64,000 nt of DNA from Eledone cirrhosa (lineage: Eukaryota). The stretch covers positions 358,236,001 to 358,300,000 of the forward strand of contig OZ024743.1 in NCBI GenBank assembly GCA_964016885.1, in the 5' to 3' direction. The notes under the pieces were generated by a model, which was given only the letters and a program-made list of their open reading frames with translations, was not told the origin of the DNA and did no database searches. This document shows, piece after piece, positions 9,771 through 60,812 of the stretch. The translations under genes were made by a program, and so were the position numbers. How positions within the stretch are numbered: the stretch's first letter is position 1; each line of letters starts with the position of its first letter.

Positions 9771-11071
9771 CAGGGTGGGGCATAATTCCTGTTACAAAGT
9801 TTTAAATCAATTTAAAAATACATTATGTTGCTAATATAACCAATATATTTGTATCAAATCCATGCACTATAACCATATTAACTATTTTTCAGAACATTAC
9901 TCCATTAACAATTTGCAATGTCCATAGAATTGAAAAGAAAGTTCATAATAGAGAAGCATGAAAAGGCCTGACTCCACCCAAGATATTTAAACTGGGGAAC
10001 ATTCTTAAGATCAATAGAATGTAGATCAAAAGGACAATCGATCGATTTAAGGAAACTTCCTCGTCCAAAGACAGACCTCAATCCGGACGCCCTCACACCT
10101 CAAGAACACCAAAACTCGTTAAAAGTGTGAGGGAAAAAATAAGGCGTAATCCAAGAAGGTGCATGAGAAAAATGGCAGAATAAGCAGAAACATCGCCGAG
10201 AACTATGCGGAGGATATGTCGAGATGATCTGGGGATGTCACCTTATAAGTTCCAAAAGAGGCAGCTTCTTTCTGCAGACACAATTGAAAAGAGGCTCTCC
10301 AGAAGTAAACTGTTATTGAACCGTATCAAGGATGGCACGCTGCAAAACATCATCTTTACAGATGAAAATTTATTCACTGTGCAGCAGTCCCACAATCATC
10401 AAAATGATCGAGTACTTGCAAAAAGTCTCAAATCAATTCCTTCAAGTGTAGGAAAAGTGTTCAGAACACAGAAACCAGCATCAGTGATGGTTTGGGCAGC
10501 CATTTCTGAAAGAGGGAAGTCTCCTCTGACTTTTGTGCCTCAAGGAGTTAAAATTAACAAAGAACTTTACATAAAGGATATTTTGGAAGGAGCACTGATG
10601 CCATGGTGCACATCTGTTTATGGCGATGACATTTGGACTCTCCAACAAGATGGACCGACGAGCCACACTGGTCGGGTAACACAACAGTGGTGTAGAGACC
10701 ATAGTCCTGCATGGATCAGTAAGGAAGAGTGGCCTCCCACATCACCAGATCTCAACTCTCTCGATTTTTCTTTATGGTCAATTCTTGAGAGTGAAGCCTG
10801 CTCTACTCCTAGCCAAAATATTGAAACTCTAAAATCAAAACTGAAAAACGTATGGGAGAAAATACCCATGGAAACTGTTCGTGCAGCCATCGAAGACTTT
10901 CCTAGAAGACTTCGAGCAGTAGTGAGAGCTAGAGGAAAGCATTTCGAATAAATGTTTGTGCAGTTGTTTAATAGTATATTACTTACTATTTGTTGAAGTC
11001 AAATCTTGAAATAAATGTTTTTTTTCAAGAACTATTTGCATTTTATTTTGTAACAGTTTTTATGCCCTACC

Positions 11072-20300: not shown

Positions 20301-22818
20301 CTAAGTACGACCTAGATGTTCCACTAAGATTAGTCCACGTCCACAGTGGCACAGTCGGAAAATCTAGTCGATATCTATCGGCCAGATCAAATCGGCCGAT
20401 TAGCCGTTTGAGGCTGTTACACCCCCCTCTATCGGGACATGCCTCTACATAGTCCCAACGTGCATCCAGGATACCATTCCAGTCCCCCACTAAAAGCAAG
20501 GAGCGAGACGTTCCCAGAAAAGTCTCTAGGCGTTGGAAGAAGTCCGGTCGCAGTGTCCTAGATGAGGCATACGCTGCCACCAGCCTGAAGGCTCCACCTT
20601 CACTACTGCCTACGTCTAAAACCACCAGTCGACCCTCCGGGTCCAGGTGTACCTTCCGTGTTGCGAGGCCCAGGTGTTTTTGCAGCAGAACGACTACCCC
20701 GCCAAGCCCCCGACTGACAGAGAGATGCATAGATCTCAAAAGTTGTCGAAGGTGGGGGCCAGTTGGTGTTCGCTGCTGATCCTGGACACAAATAGCTATC
20801 ACATCCATTCTGTGCGACCTGAGGTCATTTAAAAAGTTTGCCCTGCTTCCAGGACATCCCCAGGCCGCGCGCATTTAAACATCCAACTCTTATAACAGCC
20901 ATGTTGGTGGTGAAGAGTTTAGAGTGTAGAAAAAGGAAAATACACCTACCTGTCCTTCTCCTGGGGACCAGGCTGCACAAATTCCATGGGGGTGTCGTCG
21001 GGGTTGTTTTGTGGGGTGGGGTGGTGGTGGGGGAGGGGTGTCTGGGGGGGAACATTTCAAGAGGACGCGGTTGCTAGGTCTAGTACAGGGGTTCCCCACG
21101 TCCTCGGGAAAGTTCTGTTTGAAGATTGCGTAGGTGTCCCTTGGGATCCTAATCATTTTTAAATGCGGTTTAGTCGCCGCGTTGGTTAACATTTTCCCTT
21201 CGGTTTCCACCGGTTTGTTCTGTTTGTGCTGGTGGTTGTGTGTTTGTTGCATTTTTGTTAATGTGGTGCCTTCTTTTCTTTCTTTTTACAGGTTGAAAGG
21301 GTTCTCCCTCGTCGTCACTGGGTGACGTTGATAAAGAGTCCTCGTCCGTGTTGTTGGGGAGGGGTATATTTTGGGGTTTTGTTGTGGTTTCTTTTGTATT
21401 TGTTTTAGGTGGGGAGGGGTTGGGTGGGACAGTGTCTTGTGTTGTTATTTGTTCGTGTTGTTGTGGTTGTTGTGGTGGTGGTGGTGGTGGTGGTGGTGGT
21501 GGTGGTGGTGGTGGTGGTGGTGGTCGTCGTCGTCGTCGTCGTCGTCGTGTTGTTGTGTGTGGGGTGGGCAGAAGCGTCTTTGGGGGGCATTTAAAAGGGG
21601 ACAGGAAGCCCTCAGGTGACCACTTCTTGAACAGTGGTAGAATGAAGGCCGCCTGCCCTCAACAGAAATGTTTATGAAGGCGACTCCATCCAGGGACACA
21701 CGCTGCGGTATTCTTGCTATCCATTCTGGTCTCATTTGGACCAGAACTTCAAGGCTATTGCCGCCGAATACGCCCCTGGCGGATTCGCCTATCGAAAGGA
21801 TTGTGTCCTCATCTTCTAAGAATCCTGTTAGCACCCACCAAATGCTCGCATTTGGCCTGATGCTCGAGATTCTTATCTTTTGAGTTCTTTTCCCCTAATA
21901 TGTGGGGGGAAAGGTGTATGCTTTGGATACAATTGGCGACACAGAATATTTTCGTGCCGCCAATTCATCTTGCATTAAAACAGATATGCTTCCATACAGT
22001 TTCCCTTTCTGTATGAAGGCGATATCCTTCCAGGCACTACTTAGGACCAGCTCAATTTCGCTTTGGGACAATTGAGCCGGTTTCCTAGTCGTGTTCGAAA
22101 CTGTCCTAAAGATTACGGTCCTGAGGACTGTGTTCCTTCTAATTTCTTCGGGGGAGGTAATTGTGGATTCAACACCTTCCCCGAAAGTTACACAATTCCT
22201 TGCTTCTTTCAGCAATTTCTTGGCATTCGAGATGTCCAGTGCCTTGTATGTCTGCGTTTTTCGGACCGCCTGTGCGAAGGAGACTGCAGCTGTGGGTCCG
22301 TTTTCTTTCGTGTTGTTATCATTGTTGTTGTTGTTATTCGTGTTGGATTGCTTTTTTCCTTTGTTGGTGTTGTCATTATTTCTGTTGTTGGTTGTTATTG
22401 TCATTGTTGCTGTTGTTGGTTGTGTTGTTATTGTCATTGTTGTTCTTGTTTGTGTAATTGTTACTTTTGAGGTTTTCACCCATTTCCACAATTTTCTCTT
22501 TTTATTCCGTGGTGTCTTTTGCGGGAGTGAGGAGGCAAGGCTTACAGCGTTGTTCTGCTACCTTCTCTCTATCACTTTCCTTGGGGGGGGCATGCGTCGT
22601 ATTAATGGCGTCCATTGTCACTAAACGACTTTTTATCGACAACTTATAACTATTAAATTTCGCCCCAAAAAGGGGCGAAATTTATTTTACCCAACGTCTG
22701 CAGGCCCAGGCGAGGGGTTAAACACAACAAATAACAAATTACTTAAACAAACCTACCGCTTCTCGTAATAAATTCAGACAAAATGCAGGAGCGAAACAAA
22801 AACACGTCTATCTTCTCC

Positions 22819-24132: not shown

Positions 24133-25311
24133 AAAACGTTCCTGTGCAGAGCAGAAATTTACGCTACGCCGCATCATTTAGAGGTACAACGAATTCCAGA
24201 GGCCCCTCGCCATCAGCTTCATCAATTTCTCCAAAGCATTCGATAGCATTCATCGACCGTCGCTCTGGAGCATCATGCATGAGTATGGTCTGCCCCAGAA
24301 AGTCATTTCGGCAATCAAACAGATTTACGCAAACTCCAAGTGCTGCATACGGACAGAGGATGGTTACAGTGTCTGGTTTGAGGTGGTCACTGGCGTGCGT
24401 CGAGGTTGCTCGCTCTCTCCAATTCTCTTTGTCATAGCCATTGACTGGGTACTAAGAAGAGCGTCTAAAGACCAGGGTATATCTTGGGTGGGAGAGCAAA
24501 AGTTGTCTGACCTGGACTTTGCGGACGATATTGCTGCACTTGCAGAGAGCACAGCTGACCTGCAAATCATTGTGAACAATATCAATGTCGAAGCAGGAAG
24601 CTTAGGTCTCAATATCAGTGCCAAGAAGACCAAAAGCATGTTATATGGGACACATCCACCACCAACCAGTGTCTTCATTGAACAGGGGGAGGTGGAGATA
24701 GTGGACAACTTCACCTACCTAGGAAGCTCCATTAACAATGAGGGCACCATAGACAGTGAACTGCAATGTAGAATGGGAAAGGCTTCAGCAGCATTTAACC
24801 AGCTTGACAAGATCTGGAAGAGCAGGAAGTTCACCCTCAAAACAAAGATGAGATTCTACAACAGCAACGTGCTGTCCACGCTCTTGTACGGAAGTGAAAC
24901 ATGGCACCTTAAGACCAGCCAAGAGAAGAAGTTGGACGCATTCGATTCCAGATGTCTGCGAAATATCCTGGGGATTAAATGGAGTGACCATGTAACAAAC
25001 CAGGAAGTCAGGAACCGCATCAACCAGCAGCTAGTCTCTTCTACCATCTGCAAGCGACGCCTGGGCTGGTTTGGACACGCTTTGAGACTTCCCCCGGAGA
25101 GACTGACGAACCAAGTACTTAAATGGGGCTCGCAGGGAAGCAGACGGAGAGGGCGACCCAAAATGAACTGGCGCCAGACAGTTGAGAGGGACCTGCGAGC
25201 GACAAACAGACAATGGCGGGACACTGTGCAACTGGCTGCTGACCGAACGCGATGGAACACTATGATTGCCTCATTCGTCGCAAGACGCGGGAGCTTCAGA
25301 GTCTGAGTCTG
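24133..25311 (+). mobile_element. RTE-clade LINE, 5'-truncated, with 11-bp TSD and (CTGAGT)-type tail
   Basis: TSD AATCTCGGCTC at 24122-24132 and 25312-25322. RT motifs FSKAFDSI, GVRRGCSLSP, FADD, YLGS. RTE-type C-terminus LGWFGHALR...RRRGRPK. Confidence 0.92.
24275..25306 (+). pseudogene. Open 343-codon remnant of the RTE reverse transcriptase C-terminal half
   Basis: ORF track. Lacks the endonuclease and RT N-terminus. Confidence 0.85.
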
Positions 25312-40856: not shown

Positions 40857-41760
40857 TTCTTCTTCTTCTTCTTCTTCTTCTTCTTCTTCTTCTTCTTCTT
40901 CTTCTTCTTCTTCTTCTTCTTCGCCCACTTATTCCTGAAAGTATCGTGAGGCCAGAGACAGCCAAGCTCATGGATGTTATCCAGCCATCTTGCGCGGTGT
41001 CTACCCCTGAGTCTCTTGACCTTAAAATCCGTCCAAAGATTATTTCCTGAGACGTTCTAAACATGCCTATAGTATCAGAGCTGTGATCTCTCAATTTGGA
41101 GAAGTAGCGGCTCTATTTGAAGTGATTTTCTGATATCCAGGCTATGCACTCTATCGAGTAGCGTTACACCAAATACACTTCAGAGAAACCCCATTTTAGC
41201 CGCTTATAATCGCGATCGTCTTCTTTCGGTCATTACCCAAGATTCATGACCACAGGTAAGTATTGACCCGAATACCGAATTGAAGATAGTGATTTTGGCT
41301 TTTAGACCTACCTCCATTCTTCTGATTACCGAATGTTGAAGCTGGCACATTACTGTACAAGCTCCAGCAAATCTTGCACTTAATTCAGCTTCCTGTCTTC
41401 CATCACTCGTGAACACGGCCCCCAGGTACTTGAACTTCTCCACCTGCTTCAGTGGAACTCCATTCATATGTAGAGTGCACTGCGTAGGTTCCTTGAGAGG
41501 ATGAGTGTCTGTTTTCGCAGCCCTGATTTTCATCCCAGCTATGCATCACTCGGCATCAAACCTATCAAGTGCAAGTTGGAGATCACCTTCTGTCGAAATA
41601 AGTAACACCATGCCGTCTGCAAATTCCAGCCGATTGATTTTAAACCCGCCAGTCGTGATACTACTTCCAACCCGACTGTGCATGTCAATCCTGTTCCTGA
41701 AAATAATGAACAGGAGAGGTGACGGTACGCACTCTTGGCGGTGTCCGACTCCCACTTTCA
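40857..41760 (-). mobile_element. RTE-clade LINE (Rex3/Expander-like), 5'-truncated, (GAA)n tail
   Basis: GHRQECVPSPLLF, LEFADG, QVEKFKYLGAVFTSDG, GHESWVMTER. Homologous to 510-1391. Confidence 0.85.
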
Positions 41761-41889
41761 ATGTATGTATGTATGTATGTATGTATGTATGTATGTATGT
41801 ATGTATGTATGTATGTATGTATGCATGCATGTATGTATGTATGTATCTATGTATGTATGTATGTATCTATGTATGTATGTATATATATT

Positions 41890-42583
41890 TTGGAAAGCTC
41901 TATGTGTGACAGTATAGAAGCTCTTGTGCTTAAGCAGCGACTCCGTTGGAGTGGTCACCTTGCCAGGATGAAGGATTCTAGAATACCAAAACAACTCTTC
42001 TATGGAGAGTTGGTTAAAGGAAAACGACCGCCACATAAACCAAAAAAGAGGTATAAGGATTCCTTGAAGGCCTCTCTGAAAGACGCTAACATCTCTGCTG
42101 ATACATGGGAAAATATTGCTGCTGATCGTAATAAATGGAGAAAGACTGTATATGAGGGAAAAGTTGCCTTTGAGGCATCTCGAATCGCACACGAGAAAGT
42201 AAAGCGGGACGTGAGGAAGGGTATTGCTGTTGCACTTCCAGACGGCGAGGGTCCTCCTATGTTTCTGACATGCAGCGTCTGTGCGAGACTCTGCCTAAGC
42301 AAAGCTGGACTCGAAAGTCATCTTCGCAGTCATAAAGTAAGACCAGTGGTTGACTACCAGGCTGCTGTTGGAGATGCTACTCATCATGCTTGCCAAACAT
42401 GTGGTAGAGAATGTAAATCAGCAGGAGGACTCAAGCGACATGCAAAAGTACACGAACTCCAACCACAGCCGACTATTCCCAGTAAATGTTTTGGTTGCCG
42501 ACTCTGTGCAAGACATTTTAGATCATTGGCTGGGCTAAAAAGCCACATTCGATCGCAGCACTGTTAGTTGCTATCGTGTGTTT

Positions 42584-47432: not shown

Positions 47433-47465
47433 GTGGGCGGCAGAGCCAAAGGAGAGTGTAGAGAC

Positions 47466-49343
47466 CTACCTTTCCGCTTCCCGGGGTTCGGGTTGCACGA
47501 CTTCCATGGGGTCGGGGGTGTTGGGTGAAGGGGTGTCTTGTGGTGGTGTGGGGTCGTCGGTGTGTGGTGGGGTTGGGGTGTTTGGAGTTGTGTTGGGGAG
47601 GGGAAGGGGAGGGGGAAAGCTTTTTAGTAGGACGCGGTTTATGGGTTTGACAGAGGGTGGTCCTACGTCCTCCTTAAAATCCTTTTTTAGTTTTTGGTAG
47701 AGGTTCATTGGGATTTTTATTAGTTTTAAATGTGGGTGGTTTTCTGATGAAACAAAGTTTACACCTTCGGTTTGTACCGAAGGATTATTGTATATGAGTT
47801 CATTTAATTTATTATTGTTTCTGTTGATGTAAGTATAGTGTAATGTCTTTTTTTCCGATGGTGTGAGTGTTTCGAAGAGGGGAGGGGCAGGTTTGGTTTT
47901 GTTTGTTGCTGGAGGGGTGTTTTCTGTTTTGTTAGATTGTGTTGCGATTTGGGTGGGGGTTGTTTGTCCTTGTGTGTTTTGCACATGTTTTCTTTTTTTC
48001 CTTTTAATCTGTCTGAAGGACTCCGTTTCTTCCTCCGAATTCGTTGGGTTATCTTCAGTGTTGGAGGGAAGAGGTATGTTTGCTGGTAATGTTTCCGTGT
48101 TGGTTTTCTTTGTGGGGGAGATGGATGTCACTATGTTAGACTGTGTTGTGTGTTGTGTCTGCGGTGGTTGTGTTGTTTTATTGAGTGAGAGGTTGGGTGG
48201 GCCTGTATTTTGTTTTGGGGTAATGTGTTGTGACTGTTTGTGTTGTGGTGGTGTTGTGGTGTTACTGAGGGACGGGTTGGGTGGGACTGAGTTTTGTTGT
48301 TTGTTTATCTGTTGTGGTGGTGGTGGTGGAGCTGGTGTTGGTAGCAGGGTTTTCTTTTTGTTGAGTTGGGGACAAGCGGCCTTCAGGTGCCCTCTGCCTG
48401 CACAGATATGGCAGGACGGCCTTCTCCCCTCCACGCTAATGTTTATATACCCGTGGTCCTCTAATAGGATTCTGTCGGGTATTTGGGCGATGCGTTCAGG
48501 CTTCATTTGTACTACCAGCTCTATACCTGTTCCACTGAACGCATTGCCTGTGGTTTTCCCAATGGAAATCACGTTGTCATTCACTGGATCGATGAAGCCA
48601 GCTATGAGCCAGCAGTAGTCCACATCTGGCATCATTGCATCCAGCCATATGCGTTGAGTTTTTTTCCCCATATAAGATGGATAAAAGGTGAAATTTTTCG
48701 AACGAATCGGTGACAAAGCACATTTTTTTGCCGCCGATTCGTTCTTCATGATAATTGCTAGGCTTCCATACAGTCTGTCTTTTCTTATGAAAGTTGTTTC
48801 ATTCAGTACTTCTGCGAGTACTGTTTTGATATCTGCTTGAGAAGGCTGTTCAGGTTTTTTTGTACTGTTGTTGATGGTCCGAAACTTGACCGTTCGGCTT
48901 TCAATGTCTTTCGTGAATTCTTGAGGCATTTTTACCAATAAAATACCATTCTCACCTTCACTTATGTATTGTTTTGCGTCCGTGATCCTTCGTACCACAT
49001 CTGAAATGTTTTCCGCTATATAAGTCAAAGATTTCTTTGTTTTCTGTGCAAATGAAATCTTGTCGTCTGCTTTGTTTTCTGATATTATGTTATTTTCAAC
49101 TGTTATTTTTTTGTTTGTTGTGTCTTTGTTTGTGTTATTAGTATTGTCATGCAATTTTTCAAATTTTTTTTTTTCGTTGTTTTCGTCATTTAATTTTTTC
49201 TCCGCAGATTCGTCCGTTTTTATTTTCATTTTTCCTTCCTTCTCTATGACGTTAGTTGGGAAGGAAGGGAGGACTAAAGCGTGCGAGCTTACAACTCTTA
49301 CCGCTGTCCCCCCACCACTATTTTCGTTCGCTGCGTTTAACAT
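47466..49343 (-). CDS. ORF1p: gag-like nucleic-acid chaperone with one CCHC zinc knuckle and a Pro/Thr/Gln-rich disordered region, 625 aa
   Basis: CHICAGRGHLKAAC (CX2CX4HX4C). Homologous frames occur in copies B, D and F. Confidence 0.9.
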   Translation of the reverse strand: MLNAANENSGGGTAVRVVSSHALVLPSFPTNVIEKEGKMKIKTDESAEKKLNDENNEKKKFEKLHDNTNNTNKDTTNKKITVENNIISENKADDKISFAQKTKKSLTYIAENISDVVRRITDAKQYISEGENGILLVKMPQEFTKDIESRTVKFRTINNSTKKPEQPSQADIKTVLAEVLNETTFIRKDRLYGSLAIIMKNESAAKKCALSPIRSKNFTFYPSYMGKKTQRIWLDAMMPDVDYCWLIAGFIDPVNDNVISIGKTTGNAFSGTGIELVVQMKPERIAQIPDRILLEDHGYINISVEGRRPSCHICAGRGHLKAACPQLNKKKTLLPTPAPPPPPQQINKQQNSVPPNPSLSNTTTPPQHKQSQHITPKQNTGPPNLSLNKTTQPPQTQHTTQSNIVTSISPTKKTNTETLPANIPLPSNTEDNPTNSEEETESFRQIKRKKRKHVQNTQGQTTPTQIATQSNKTENTPPATNKTKPAPPLFETLTPSEKKTLHYTYINRNNNKLNELIYNNPSVQTEGVNFVSSENHPHLKLIKIPMNLYQKLKKDFKEDVGPPSVKPINRVLLKSFPPPLPLPNTTPNTPTPPHTDDPTPPQDTPSPNTPDPMEVVQPEPREAER

Positions 49344-49577
49344 TTCTGTTAGACGATTGAAATTTTTTACACAAAATTTTTTTTTAAAACAGGTTTTTCA
49401 CCTCTAGGAGGGGTAAAGATGAGCTGACCCACCGCCTGACAGTTCAGACGGAGGGTCAAGCTACACAATTGTATCAAAATTAAGTTTGAACTCACAAAAT
49501 TTCCTCAATAAATTTGAACAAAACTTCTGTGCGAAGTGAATGACATCCACACTGTAGAACAGACGACAGCTAGATTT

Positions 49578-49627
<50 letters not shown>
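49578..49627. repeat. (GATA)n spacer between copies C and D
   Basis: Direct reading. Confidence 0.97.
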
Positions 49628-49648
<21 letters not shown>

Positions 49649-54319: not shown

Positions 54320-54855
54320 CAGCCTCGGTGTTAGAAATCGCAATTTCTTGACGAGGTGAAATTTTATCTCTAGGTGTATCTATAGAGTTGGTGTTGTTGG
54401 ATTTTTCATGTGTATGTATATTAATAGGTTTAATTCCTCTGTTTTCCTGTGTATGCTGTGTGTTATTTTTCTCCGCTTCGACGGTAGAAATTTTAAAATG
54501 TTCAATTGGCAATATTTTTTTTTCTTTGTTGACAGTCGTATCCATGACGACGTCCATAGTGGCAGAAGTAGATATAACGTTAATATCTGCCTTTCTACCT
54601 CTCTTCCCTCTGTCGACGTTCTCCGGCGTTCTTTCCGAGTTATTCATGTTTTATAGTCGGCAAAATTTGATTTTTTTTTAACAATTTTTAAATTAAATTT
54701 TCGCCCCTAAAGGGGCGAAAAATGGGATTACCACCCAGCTGACAATTCAGCTTGGGGGTTAATCTACAAAATGATATGTTTTTTCAAACAATTAGTTCAG
54801 TTTTTTGTATAGAAATTTACAAAAAAGCTTACCAGCGATGTTCCACGCGTCAGGC
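49628..54855 (-). mobile_element. Tx1-group LINE copy D, both ends present, frameshifted; ORF1 (54647-53280) lacks the knuckle by deletion and has an (AAC)n expansion; ORF2 53237-49879
   Basis: ORF fragments 49879-50688, 50732-51463, 51616-52074, 51912-52757, 52848-53279, 53456-54343 and 54150-54647 are all homologous to copy C. Confidence 0.93.
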
Positions 54856-58100: not shown

Positions 58101-60812
58101 ATAGCCAACCATGAACATTTCTGGACAACTTAAAAAGTCCCTGTCCTTATTTCTAACTAAGAACCTATCTAGGTACGATCTAGATTGACCGCTACGATTT
58201 GTCCAAGACCAGGTTGGCACCGTCGGAAAATCTAGTCGAAATCTATCGGCCAGGTCAAATCGGCCGAGTAACCCCTTGAGGCTTTTACACCCCTCTATAT
58301 CGGTACATGCCACTGCATAGTCCCAACGTGCATCAAGGATACCATTCCAGTCCCCCACTAAAAGCAGGGAACGGGACGTCCCTAGAAAAGACTCCAGACG
58401 TTGGAAGAAGTCGGACCGCTCTGTCCCAAAAGGGGCATATGCGGCTACCAGCCTAAAGGCTCCACCTTCACCACTGCCAAGATCCAACACCACCAGTCGA
58501 CCCCCTGGGTCCAAGTGAACTATCTGTGTGGCGAGACCCAGATGTTTTTGCAGCAGAACGACAACCCCACCCCCACCTCCGGGCTGACAGAGAGATGCGT
58601 GCATCTCAAAGTCATCAAAGGTCGGGGCTAGCTGTCGCACGCTGCTGATCCGGGCCTCGCAGATAACCATCACATTTATAGATCGTGACCTGAGGTCATT
58701 TAGAAGCATTGCTTGCTTCCAAGGTGAGCCCAGGCCACGCGCATTTAGACACCCTACTCTCAGCACAGCCATGTTGGTGGTAAGGAGAAAAGGCACTTAC
58801 CTCTCTGCGTCCCGGGGAGCGGGCCGCTCAATTTCCATGAGGGTTGGGGATGGGTTGTTGGGTGGGGTGGTGGTTTGTGGAAATGTAGGGGCATCAGTGT
58901 GTTGTGGAGTTGGGTGTTTGTAGTTGAGTGGGTGTCTGAGTAGGGGGTGGGGACATTTTTTAGGAGGACGCGGTTGATTGGCTTGATGCAGGGGGGGGGG
59001 GGCACGTCGTCAGTGAAATTTATTTTCAACGTTTTGTATAAGTTCATTGGGACTTTAATCATTTGTAAATGAGGTAGTCCCACAGCAGTTAGAAAGTTAG
59101 GCCCTTCAGTTTGGACCGAAGGGTTTGACGAAATTGTGTTCATTAGTTCTTTGTTGTTTGTGTTCATGAATGTATATTGTAAAGTCTTTTTTTGCGTTGC
59201 AGTTAGTGTTGTGTGACGGGGAGGGGTGGTTTGTATATAGTTTGTTTTCTCTTGGGGAGGGTTTATGTTAATAAGTGTGTCTGTGGTGCGCCTCCTCTTC
59301 TTTCTTTTTACTATTTGGAAGGGATCTTTTTCGTCTTGCGACGAAAGGGGTTCGTCTTCCTTGTTGGGTGGGAGGGGTATATTTTCTAGTAGTGTTTGCG
59401 GTGTGTGTGTTTTTGTATTTGTTTTGGGTGGGGAGGGGTTGGGTGGGACAGTGTTCTGTGTTGTTTTTTCACGTGTTTGTTGTTGTTGTTGTGGTGGTGG
59501 TGTTGTTGGTTTTGTTGTTGTTGTTGTGGTTGTTTTTGTTGTTGTTGTTGGGGTGGTGGTGGTGTTGGTTGTTTTTGATGTTGTTGTTGGGGTGTTGGTA
59601 GCAATGGTTTTTTCGGTGTGAGCTGGGGACAGGCAGCCCTCAGGTGACCTCTGTTGCCACAGAGGTAACAGGAGGGACGCCTACCCTCCACAATAATGTT
59701 GAGGTGGGTACGGTCATCCAGCATGACGCGTTCAGGGATTTGGGCGATACGTTCTGGCCTTATTTGGGTCAGAACTTCAATGCTCGTTCCACTGAATGCG
59801 TCGCCGGATGCCTTCCCTATTGATATAAGGTTGTCCTCGTCCAAGTTGAGGAAACCGGTTGGTAACCACCAGTAGTTTATGTTTGGGGTGATAGTGGTTA
59901 TCCTAATTCTTTGGGGTTTTTTACCCATGTAGGTTGGAAAAAAGGTGTAATGTGTGGAACGAATTGGCGACACAGAGTATTTTTTCGCCGCCAATTCGTC
60001 TTTCATCAATATGGATAAACTCCCATAGAGTTTATCCTTTTGTATGAAAATTGTCTTTCATAGCCTCTTTCAGGACCAACTGAATTTCAGCTTGAGATGG
60101 TTGCGCTGGTTTTCTTGTTTTGTTGGCAATTGTACGGAATACAACAGTTCGTAATTCCGTCTGTTTTTTTAGTTCTGGGGGCGAATTGATGGGAAAAGAT
60201 CCATTTTCGCCAAAAGATACATATTTTTTTGCTTTTTCAAGCATTTCTTTTGCATTTGTTATATCCTCAAGCACATAGGTGACTGATATTTTAGCAGTCT
60301 GTGCAAAAGATATTTTGTTTTCGTTGTTGGTGTTTGAGTTGTTCTGTTTCTCGTAGTTTGAGTTATTTTCATTTTTGTTGTTGTTGTCTTTCTCATTTGG
60401 TGCGTTGGTTTTGTCATTGTTAGTGTTTTCGTTGTAATTAATTGGGTTTGCACCCGTATTTACTTGTTTGCCCGGCATATCGCCTTTTACAAAGTCTTTT
60501 AAAACGTTGACGCGGGAAAGCAAAACGCTTTGTAACGCTTGCTTCTTTCTCACTTCTTCCTTAGTGAACGTGGTGTTTTCGTTCACACGTGCTACAGACA
60601 TGGCGTCAATTTTTTACCATGTGAGTCAGCAAAAATTTTTTGGAGTAGTTTTTACCCCCAAAAGGGGTAAAAATACGATGACCACCCGTCTACAGACCTA
60701 GCCGGCTGGTTAAAAGACACGAAGACAACACAATAAAGAGACAAAGACTTACTGTCAATAGGTAAAAATTCAAAAAGGCAGGAGCCGATGTTGTACGCGT
60801 CTATACTATGCG
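55178..60812 (-). mobile_element. Tx1-group LINE copy F, full length, lightly damaged (ORF1 60601-58797 frameshifted; ORF2 58772-55371 with two TGG>TAG stops and a short deletion)
   Basis: ORFs 56580-58796, 56082-56567 and 55371-56060 are in one frame. Knuckle CYLCGNRGHLRAAC. (GATA)n on both sides. Confidence 0.95.

What the first reader, a model, noticed from the sequence alone, without database searches (positions are those of the whole stretch)
49394..49468. Conserved double-hairpin RNA element with compensatory changes in the 5' UTR of all four full-length Tx1 copies
Seen (element sense): a long bulged hairpin followed immediately by a U-rich/CCCC...GGGG/A-rich hairpin, about 40-50 nt before the ORF1 ATG. 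C: TGACCC-T-CCGTCTGA(ACTG)TCAGGCGG-T-GGGTCA then TTTACCCCT(CCT)AGAGGTGAA. D (about 54696-54768): CCC-A-AGCTGA(ATTG)TCAGCT-GGG then TTTTCGCCCC(TTTA)GGGGCGAAAA. B (about 22654-22722): ACCC..CGCCTG(..)CAGACG..GGGT then AAATTTCGCCCC(TTTTT)GGGGCGAAATTT. F (about 60649-60715): ACCA-G-CCG-G-CTA(..)TAG-A-CGG-G-TGGT then TTTTTACCCC(TTTTG)GGGGTAAAAA. Sequence differs but pairing is kept (CG/CG versus TA/TA swap), and the G-U wobbles in C fit the sense RNA. Inference: an unassigned cis-acting RNA for translation initiation, packaging, or processing of read-through transcripts in the array. It does not match the hammerhead or HDV consensus by eye.
Basis: partly seen in the sequence, partly recalled or inferred. 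Interest (0 to 1): 0.72.

Follow-up and report, generated by a model that had tools for sequence, protein, structure and literature searches.

The report
Conserved leader hairpins in Tx1 retrotransposons
A large family of jumping genes in this animal genome keeps two hairpin-forming stretches just before its first gene even where the letters have changed, which likely marks a folded RNA signal, most plausibly a loading site for the element's own RNA-binding protein, though no RNA or bench data test this yet.

Summary
The double hairpin is real: all four window copies fold far better than shuffles (z -3.2 to -6.2). It belongs to a genome-wide lineage of microsatellite-targeting L1/Tx1-type LINEs. 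Hairpin 2's pattern has 1349 hits against 11 for the control. Across 25 representatives with three target types (ORF2 64-95% identical to copy C where measured), 19 keep the fold (control window 3 of 25), some with entirely different letters. One hairpin-2 pair covaries beyond a tree-based null (p about 0.001-0.003, picked post hoc). Hairpin 1 covariation is not significant, strand preference is unresolved (13 of 25), and family S nearly lacks the structure. It is not a ribozyme and has no Rfam match; it lies 118-180 nt inside a sharp 5' end. The leader order is DPE-like motif, splice-donor-like GTRAG, hairpins, AU-rich spacer, AUG of a CCHC-knuckle ORF1, which resembles retroviral packaging signals. 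Best reading: a selected cis RNA structure (about 0.7), likely an ORF1p loading site (0.35). Earlier scan notes on other DNA covered this lineage's GATA targeting and ORF1-stop donor, not these hairpins.

The parts
49425..49458 (-). Hairpin 1 of copy C (long bulged stem, apical CTG-N6-CAG, basal ACC/GGT); element positions +118 to +151
   Evidence: -27.9 kcal/mol for the 48-nt window
49396..49417 (-). Hairpin 2 of copy C (U-run/C4, loop, G4/A-run); weakened in this family; +159 to +180
49490..49495 (-). 5' splice-donor-like GTGAGT upstream of hairpin 1 (use not shown)
   Evidence: no spliced copy among 409
49544..49548 (-). DPE-like GGATG at +28 to +32 from the family C 5' end (promoter role inferred)
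   Evidence: position per PMC4748587 passages
49344..49575 (-). 5' UTR of copy C, 232 nt; sharp 5' end at about 49575
47466..49343 (-). ORF1 of copy C, 625 aa, one C-X2-C-X4-H-X4-C knuckle at residue 311; central part resembles RNA-binding-domain plus CCHC proteins (lead only)
47464..47471 (-). Second donor consensus AG|GTAGGT containing the ORF1 stop codon
43995..47432 (-). ORF2 of copy C, 1145 aa: AP endonuclease, reverse transcriptase, zf-RVT-like end
49578..49645 (.). (GATA)17 target tract between copies D and C
54699..54761 (-). Hairpins 1 and 2 of copy D
22658..22720 (-). Hairpins 1 and 2 of copy B (hairpin 1 weak, hairpin 2 perfect 13 bp)
60650..60712 (-). Hairpins 1 and 2 of copy F (A-U closing pair in hairpin 1; U-A for C-G in hairpin 2)

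Best explanation
The two hairpins are a conserved part of the 5' leader of a Tx1-type LINE lineage, likely selected as a folded RNA structure, and they likely act as the site where the element's own CCHC-knuckle ORF1 protein would load onto the full-length RNA. Shown: position between a donor-like motif and the ORF1 AUG, persistence of the fold across families, one covarying pair. Inferred: the element is transcribed from an internal DPE-type promoter at +1; the hairpins form on that RNA; ORF1p binds them, which would mark unspliced full-length RNA for particle assembly and damp further ORF1 translation, as retroviral packaging signals do. Odds: selected RNA structure about 0.7; this particular function about 0.35.
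For: Fold kept in 19 of 25 family representatives (z < -2) against 3 of 25 for the adjacent upstream leader window. In a fixed window before the ORF1 AUG: 11 of 18 own representatives against 1 of 12 distant L1/Tx1-type loci. Families E, P, Q and R keep a long plus a short hairpin with other letters; R flips the core to GGGCC/GGCCC; P closes with C(UUCG)G (15 of 16 copies) and two fixed G-U pairs (16 of 16). Hairpin-2 purine-pyrimidine pair: G-C 9, A-U 8, G-U 2, A-C 0 of 19; independent evolution on the ORF2 tree gives this in 0.05-0.3% of matched simulations. Loop length varies from 3 to 6 nt, unlike a fixed-spacing DNA site. Donor-like GTRRG lies upstream in 24 of 25 representatives, at one of two positions (22 found; H and I4 were mis-trimmed there and show it). 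ORF1 has a CCHC knuckle. [quoted passage not shown]
Against: No binding, probing or expression data. Hairpin 1 covariation is not above shuffles (score 0.170 vs 0.147, 48 of 500), nor is hairpin 2 on a MAFFT alignment that misregisters 7 of 16 rows (51 of 500). The significant pair was chosen after seeing the data, out of about 24 pairs. Sense folds better than antisense in only 13 of 25; G-U 18 vs A-C 11, p 0.26. Family S has almost no structure (z -0.5, -0.4), T has lost hairpin 1, and the very young family C has a weak hairpin 2. Retroviral packaging loops are purine-rich while hairpin-2 loops here are U/C-rich. No spliced copy at the leader donor among 409 family C copies, so use of the donor is unproven.
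Confidence: 0.35

Rival explanations
1. The hairpins are RNA but work only on ribosomes: they slow or redirect scanning, or with the AU-rich spacer form an entry site, and so set ORF1 (and coupled ORF2) output without a specific protein partner.
For: Near-constant distance of 42-80 nt from the hairpin-2 loop to the AUG with a spacer of 6-38% GC. Fold kept while letters change. Families with the weakest hairpin 2 (C, E) have among the strongest hairpin 1.
Against: The trade-off between the two hairpins is not significant (Spearman -0.18, p 0.39; -0.40, p 0.057 without S). Within the GATA group hairpin 2 keeps its sequence (70% pairwise identity against 49-56% in the flanks), more than a mere barrier needs. 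The spacer is not predicted clearly unpaired (0.37-0.78).
Confidence: 0.22
2. The inverted repeats act as DNA: palindromic binding sites for dimeric transcription factors in the internal promoter, or cruciforms; paired changes arise by template-switch correction of quasi-palindromes (mechanism recalled, not from a call).
For: No strand preference. Half-sites GGGGYGAAA and CTG-N6-CAG are conserved in sequence in the GATA group. They sit downstream of a DPE-like motif.
Against: Sister families replace the half-site sequences yet keep stems. Spacer length varies 3-6 nt. A site that accepted G or A independently on each side should give A-C states; 0 of 19. UUCG loop and fixed G-U pairs in family P read well only as sense RNA.
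Confidence: 0.2
3. The hairpins control RNA processing: they keep the leader donor from being spliced, or help the unspliced RNA leave the nucleus, while U1 bound at the two donor motifs protects the A-rich RNA from early polyadenylation.
For: Donor-like motif upstream in 24 of 25 representatives; a second donor consensus holds the ORF1 stop in 86 of 91 own-genome copies against 1 of 34 distant loci.
Against: No conserved acceptor before the ORF1 AUG. No spliced retrocopies at either donor in family C. Family Q keeps strong hairpins without a donor motif.
Confidence: 0.15
4. The structure is a self-cleaving ribozyme that frees the element from read-through transcripts of the tandem array.
For: Elements stand head to tail; R2 and L1Tc use HDV-like ribozymes this way (PMC3383444 abstract; PMC3774820 start of abstract in listing).
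Against: Those ribozymes cut at the element's +1; here the hairpins begin at +118 and the upstream leader is kept in the 30 family C loci examined (one with an internal deletion). No Rfam hit. Recalled core motifs of hammerhead, HDV, twister, pistol and hatchet occur in at most 3 of 25 representatives, never across families. The catalytic-C-like position in GGGGYGAAA is T in 10 of 19.
Confidence: 0.03

Closest known systems
Retroviral packaging signals (HIV-1 and MLV psi; spleen necrosis virus double hairpin; GACG hairpin pair of type C retroviruses). PMC5086612: passages and two reference titles seen; the primary papers were not read.
   Same: Stem-loops in the 5' leader between a splice donor and the start of a CCHC-knuckle protein gene.
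   Different: Host element is a non-LTR LINE without particles or dimers; no GACG tetraloops (1 chance motif match in 25); hairpin-2 loops are pyrimidine-rich; binding untested.
SART1 (R1 clade) ORF1p-dependent specific RNA packaging. Seen as one passage in PMC4120745; the primary paper was not held.
   Same: Two-ORF, repeat-targeting LINE whose ORF1 has gag-like CCHC knuckles.
   Different: Different clade; three knuckles against one here; no conserved leader hairpin is named in the passage seen.
5' HDV-like ribozymes of R2 and L1Tc (Pr77/L1TcRz; PMC3383444 abstract and opening read)
   Same: Structured RNA in the 5' end of a LINE found in tandem arrays; internal DPE-type promoter (PMC4748587 passages).
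   Different: No pseudoknot or catalytic core found; structure starts at +118, not +1.
Microsatellite-targeting Tx1 elements Kibi (TC)n, Koshi (TTC)n and crocodilian (TTCC/TTTC)n families (PMC4494074 passages)
   Same: L1/Tx1-type two-ORF element that inserts into simple repeats.
   Different: Targets here are (TATC)n, (ATT)n and satellite-like repeats; the passages seen mention no leader structure.

Membership tests
L1/Tx1-type non-LTR retrotransposon | ORF2 with AP endonuclease, RT and C-terminal zinc-binding region; separate ORF1 | tested here: met
   Pfam PF03372, PF00078, PF13966 (below cut-off); best solved relative human L1 ORF2p, E 1e-50
Tx1 clade | RT phylogeny with named Tx1 elements | not tested
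   No reference Tx1 sequences were held; the only named hit is a fungal 'Transposon TX1' protein at 26%. The label rests on architecture and target preference.
Tx1 clade | Target preference for repeats | tested here: met
   Copies are flanked by (TATC)n, (ATT)n or satellite units
Known Rfam family | Match at gathering score | tested here: not met
   0 hits in the window; only sub-threshold hits in leaders of C, P, Q and six loci
HDV-like ribozyme | Cleavage site at the element's 5' end; nested pseudoknot; invariant catalytic C | tested here: not met
   Structure at +118 to +180; L3-like motif in 2 of 25; candidate C is T in 10 of 19. Motif patterns were recalled.
Hammerhead, twister, pistol, hatchet ribozymes | Conserved catalytic core motifs | tested here: not met
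   Recalled patterns match 0-3 of 25 representatives, scattered; no Rfam hit
Retroviral psi-type signal | Lies downstream of a splice donor and upstream of the CCHC protein's start | tested here: met
   Position met in 24 of 25 representatives; donor function not shown
Retroviral psi-type signal | Purine-rich or GACG terminal loops | tested here: not met
   Hairpin-2 loops U/C-rich; hairpin-1 loop RRNYKK only partly purine
Retroviral psi-type signal | Specific binding by the zinc-knuckle protein and need for packaging | not testable with these tools
   Needs CLIP, binding and retrotransposition assays
Conserved RNA secondary structure | Significant covariation | tested here: inconclusive
   One pair significant on a tree null; whole-helix measures not significant; R-scape not available
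Conserved RNA secondary structure | Strand asymmetry favouring the transcribed strand | tested here: inconclusive
   13 of 25 by energy; G-U 18, A-C 11; family P favours sense

The most novel reading that the evidence does not exclude
This LINE lineage has independently evolved a retrovirus-like leader: a U1-bound splice donor followed by a psi-like double hairpin that ORF1p recognises, working with the second donor on the ORF1 stop codon to sort spliced, translated RNAs from the unspliced RNA that is copied. It would be a defined 5' packaging signal in a non-LTR retrotransposon.
Probability: 0.15. Interest if true: 0.8.

Novelty: new variant of a known kind. Interest (0 to 1): 0.5.

Why it matters
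How LINE ORF1 proteins pick their own RNA is poorly defined, and the known RNA signals of two-ORF LINEs are mostly 3' stem-loops or 5' ribozymes. A compact 65-nt leader module, with natural variants on a resolved tree and a very young family (406 leader copies; at least 129 copies with an identical ORF1 segment), makes the question testable by stem disruption and rescue. Even if the function is translational, it adds an unlisted structured RNA motif carried by over a thousand genomic copies.

Tried and rejected
Rfam scans: nothing at threshold. Covariance model R1 from 20 GATA-group leaders: finds the four window copies at 75-84 bits, nothing in 80 distant metagenome L1/Tx1-type loci (best E 0.29), and only weak hits (13-18 bits) on sister-lineage leaders, so it is a sequence-led model. 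Expression: no RNA holder listed. Laying contigs of four runs of unknown kind gave no joint at either donor; run X1 had no cover over 49400-49572, which is not evidence. Spliced retrocopies: none at the leader donor (3 non-G hits: 2 point changes, 1 short deletion) or at the ORF1-stop donor of family C (2 hits: 1 short deletion, 1 point change). A conserved acceptor before the ORF1 AUG was looked for and not found. Energy trade-off between hairpins: not significant. The Fisher test misregistered F, O and K and is replaced; the automatic anchoring dropped 8 of 71 leaders and misplaced hairpin 1 in families N and O. Kissing-loop dimerisation was considered: hairpin-1 loops hold a palindrome in D and B but not in C, F, G or K. 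Literature: searches found no description of this leader structure; the library lacks most subscription journals and Repbase reports, and no supplements were read, where family-level notes could sit.

Full report
Setting. The window holds several copies of a two-ORF LINE on the minus strand, each between (GATA)n tracts. Copy C is intact: ORF1 of 625 aa with one CCHC knuckle and ORF2 of 1145 aa with AP endonuclease, RT and a zf-RVT-like end. Its closest solved relative is human L1 ORF2p. The Tx1 label rests on architecture and target preference; no tree with named Tx1 elements was made. The genome has 3.0 Gb in 1796 contigs. That it is an octopod is an inference, also made in earlier scan notes, and was not tested.

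Observation. Both hairpins are present in B, C, D and F as described. Sense-strand z-scores are -4.75, -6.21, -4.59 and -3.15 for C, D, B and F. Antisense scores are similar, and D and B fold slightly better antisense. In C, hairpin 2 carries two A-C mismatches and is missing from the centroid.

Genome-wide extent. A pattern for hairpin 2 has 1349 matches against 11 for the reversed control. The first 15 of 15 loci lie in an element leader just downstream of a TATC/TGTC tract, one with most of hairpin 1 deleted. 71 distinct leaders fell into 12 clusters, with related ORF2 sequence downstream in the long loci. This sample was selected largely by the hairpin pattern, so I sought relatives without it: a distant ORF2 query, array neighbours and a 3'-end motif with 20,021 matches. 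These gave families on (ATT)n (P, Q, R, S), a satellite-targeting family T and the window's own element E. An ORF2 tree of 23 representatives plus four outside proteins (K and R left out for lack of ORF2 sequence) separates the ATT families from the GATA group; identities to C run from 64 to 95%.

Is the fold conserved? In a 100-nt window around the hairpins, 19 of 25 representatives fold at z < -2, against 3 of 25 for the adjacent upstream window. In a fixed window 135-35 nt before the ORF1 AUG, 11 of 18 do so against 1 of 12 distant L1/Tx1-type loci from metagenomes (7 representatives left out because the AUG was not fixed, 68 of 80 loci because no ORF1 leader was held). E, P, Q and R keep a long and a short hairpin with other letters. 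P has a C(UUCG)G loop in 15 of 16 copies and two G-U pairs in 16 of 16; R reverses the G/C order of the core. Exceptions: S is nearly unstructured, T lacks hairpin 1, and P scores only z about -1 in the wide window.

Covariation. For hairpin 1, 80.4% of cells pair, six pairs show double changes, and the score (0.170) is reached by 48 of 500 shuffles. For hairpin 2 the tool result is also not significant, on an alignment that misregisters 7 of 16 rows. With the register anchored on the C4/G4 core, the purine-pyrimidine pair is G-C in 9, A-U in 8, G-U in 2 and A-C in 0 of 19. Independent evolution of the two sides on the tree (18 tips) matches this in 2 of 760, 2 of 3813 and 14 of 8851 qualifying simulations. 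The pair was chosen after inspection among about 24, so the corrected value is roughly 0.01-0.06. Strand tests are neutral overall: 13 of 25 by energy; G-U 18, A-C 11.

Anatomy of the leader. Family C is very young (129 of 150 scored matches tie at the top score, 100% identical over 194 aa; 406 leader copies). Its 5' end is sharp, with variable A/T-rich letters between the tract and the element in the 30 loci examined. Counting from that end, a DPE-like GGATG falls at +28 to +32, the position given for DPEs in insect LINE promoters (PMC4748587, passages). A donor-like GTRRG follows in 24 of 25 representatives, at about -87 or -120 from the hairpin-2 loop (chance per shuffled leader 0.14-0.39). 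Then come hairpin 1 (+118 to +151), hairpin 2 (+159 to +180), an AU-rich spacer and the AUG (+233). A second donor consensus contains the ORF1 stop in 86 of 91 copies; I saw this before reading earlier notes that report it. No spliced retrocopy was found at either donor in family C.

Mechanism. A ribozyme is unlikely: the structure is far inside a retained 5' end, with no Rfam match or conserved core. A DNA palindrome reading stays possible because strand tests are neutral, but it fits poorly with sequence turnover, variable spacing and the missing A-C state. Among RNA functions I favour an ORF1p loading site. The order donor, hairpin pair, AUG of a CCHC protein is that of retroviral packaging signals (PMC5086612, passages), SART1 knuckles package their RNA specifically (PMC4120745, passage), and ORF1 residues 90-335 resemble RNA-binding-domain plus CCHC clusters (scores 0.89-0.92, a lead). 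This is analogy only: loops are not purine-rich, binding is untested, and translation control or splicing control explain the position nearly as well.

Novelty. Ten paper searches showed no description of this leader structure. An Octopus vulgaris repeat annotation lists 13 recently active L1-Tx1 families and has no occurrence of 'UTR' (PMC13282606, passages). A survey of vertebrate L1 5' UTRs reports conserved 5' motifs, and no leader hairpin in the passages seen (PMC5381506, 12 of 26 places). Scan look-ups near this place and by sequence returned nothing. Verdict: a real, lineage-wide structured leader motif with modest covariation support and an unproven function; a new variant of a known kind (structured retroelement leaders); interest 0.5.

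Noticed in passing
window 47464-47471 and 58795-58802 (minus); 86 of 91 own-genome copies: The ORF1 stop codon (TAA, TAG or TGA) sits inside a 5' splice-site consensus, followed by a pyrimidine tract and the ORF2 AUG 25-46 nt on; 1 of 34 distant loci have such a motif. Already noted elsewhere in the scan.
   Followed up: partly
window 49544-49548; RGACG at 22805-22809 and 60798-60802: DPE-like motif near the 5' end. In most GATA families it lies only about 10 nt from the TATC tract, so +1 would fall inside the microsatellite; in family C it is at +28 of element sequence.
   Followed up: partly
L316-L319, L322 (G000:C1): Family T inserts into a satellite-like repeat instead of a microsatellite and nests within the GATA group on the ORF2 tree.
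   Followed up: partly
L246-L265, L296-L311: Sister families P, Q, R, S target (ATT)n; P looks young and stands in tandem arrays, and has a third small hairpin before the AUG.
   Followed up: partly
3' ends, e.g. window 49657 and 43789 (minus): A shared 3' motif (small hairpin followed by AATAAA) has 20,021 matches genome-wide against 0 for the control.
   Followed up: no
L297, L299, L302 (family S leader): CCCAAAA occurs on both sides of TTGGGG, allowing two mutually exclusive short hairpins.
   Followed up: no
window 41719-42567 (+): C2H2 zinc-finger array ORF next to copy C.
   Followed up: no
window 24275-25306 (+) and 10205-10951 (+): An unrelated RT fragment with DUF6451, and a weak DDE_3 transposase-like ORF.
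   Followed up: no
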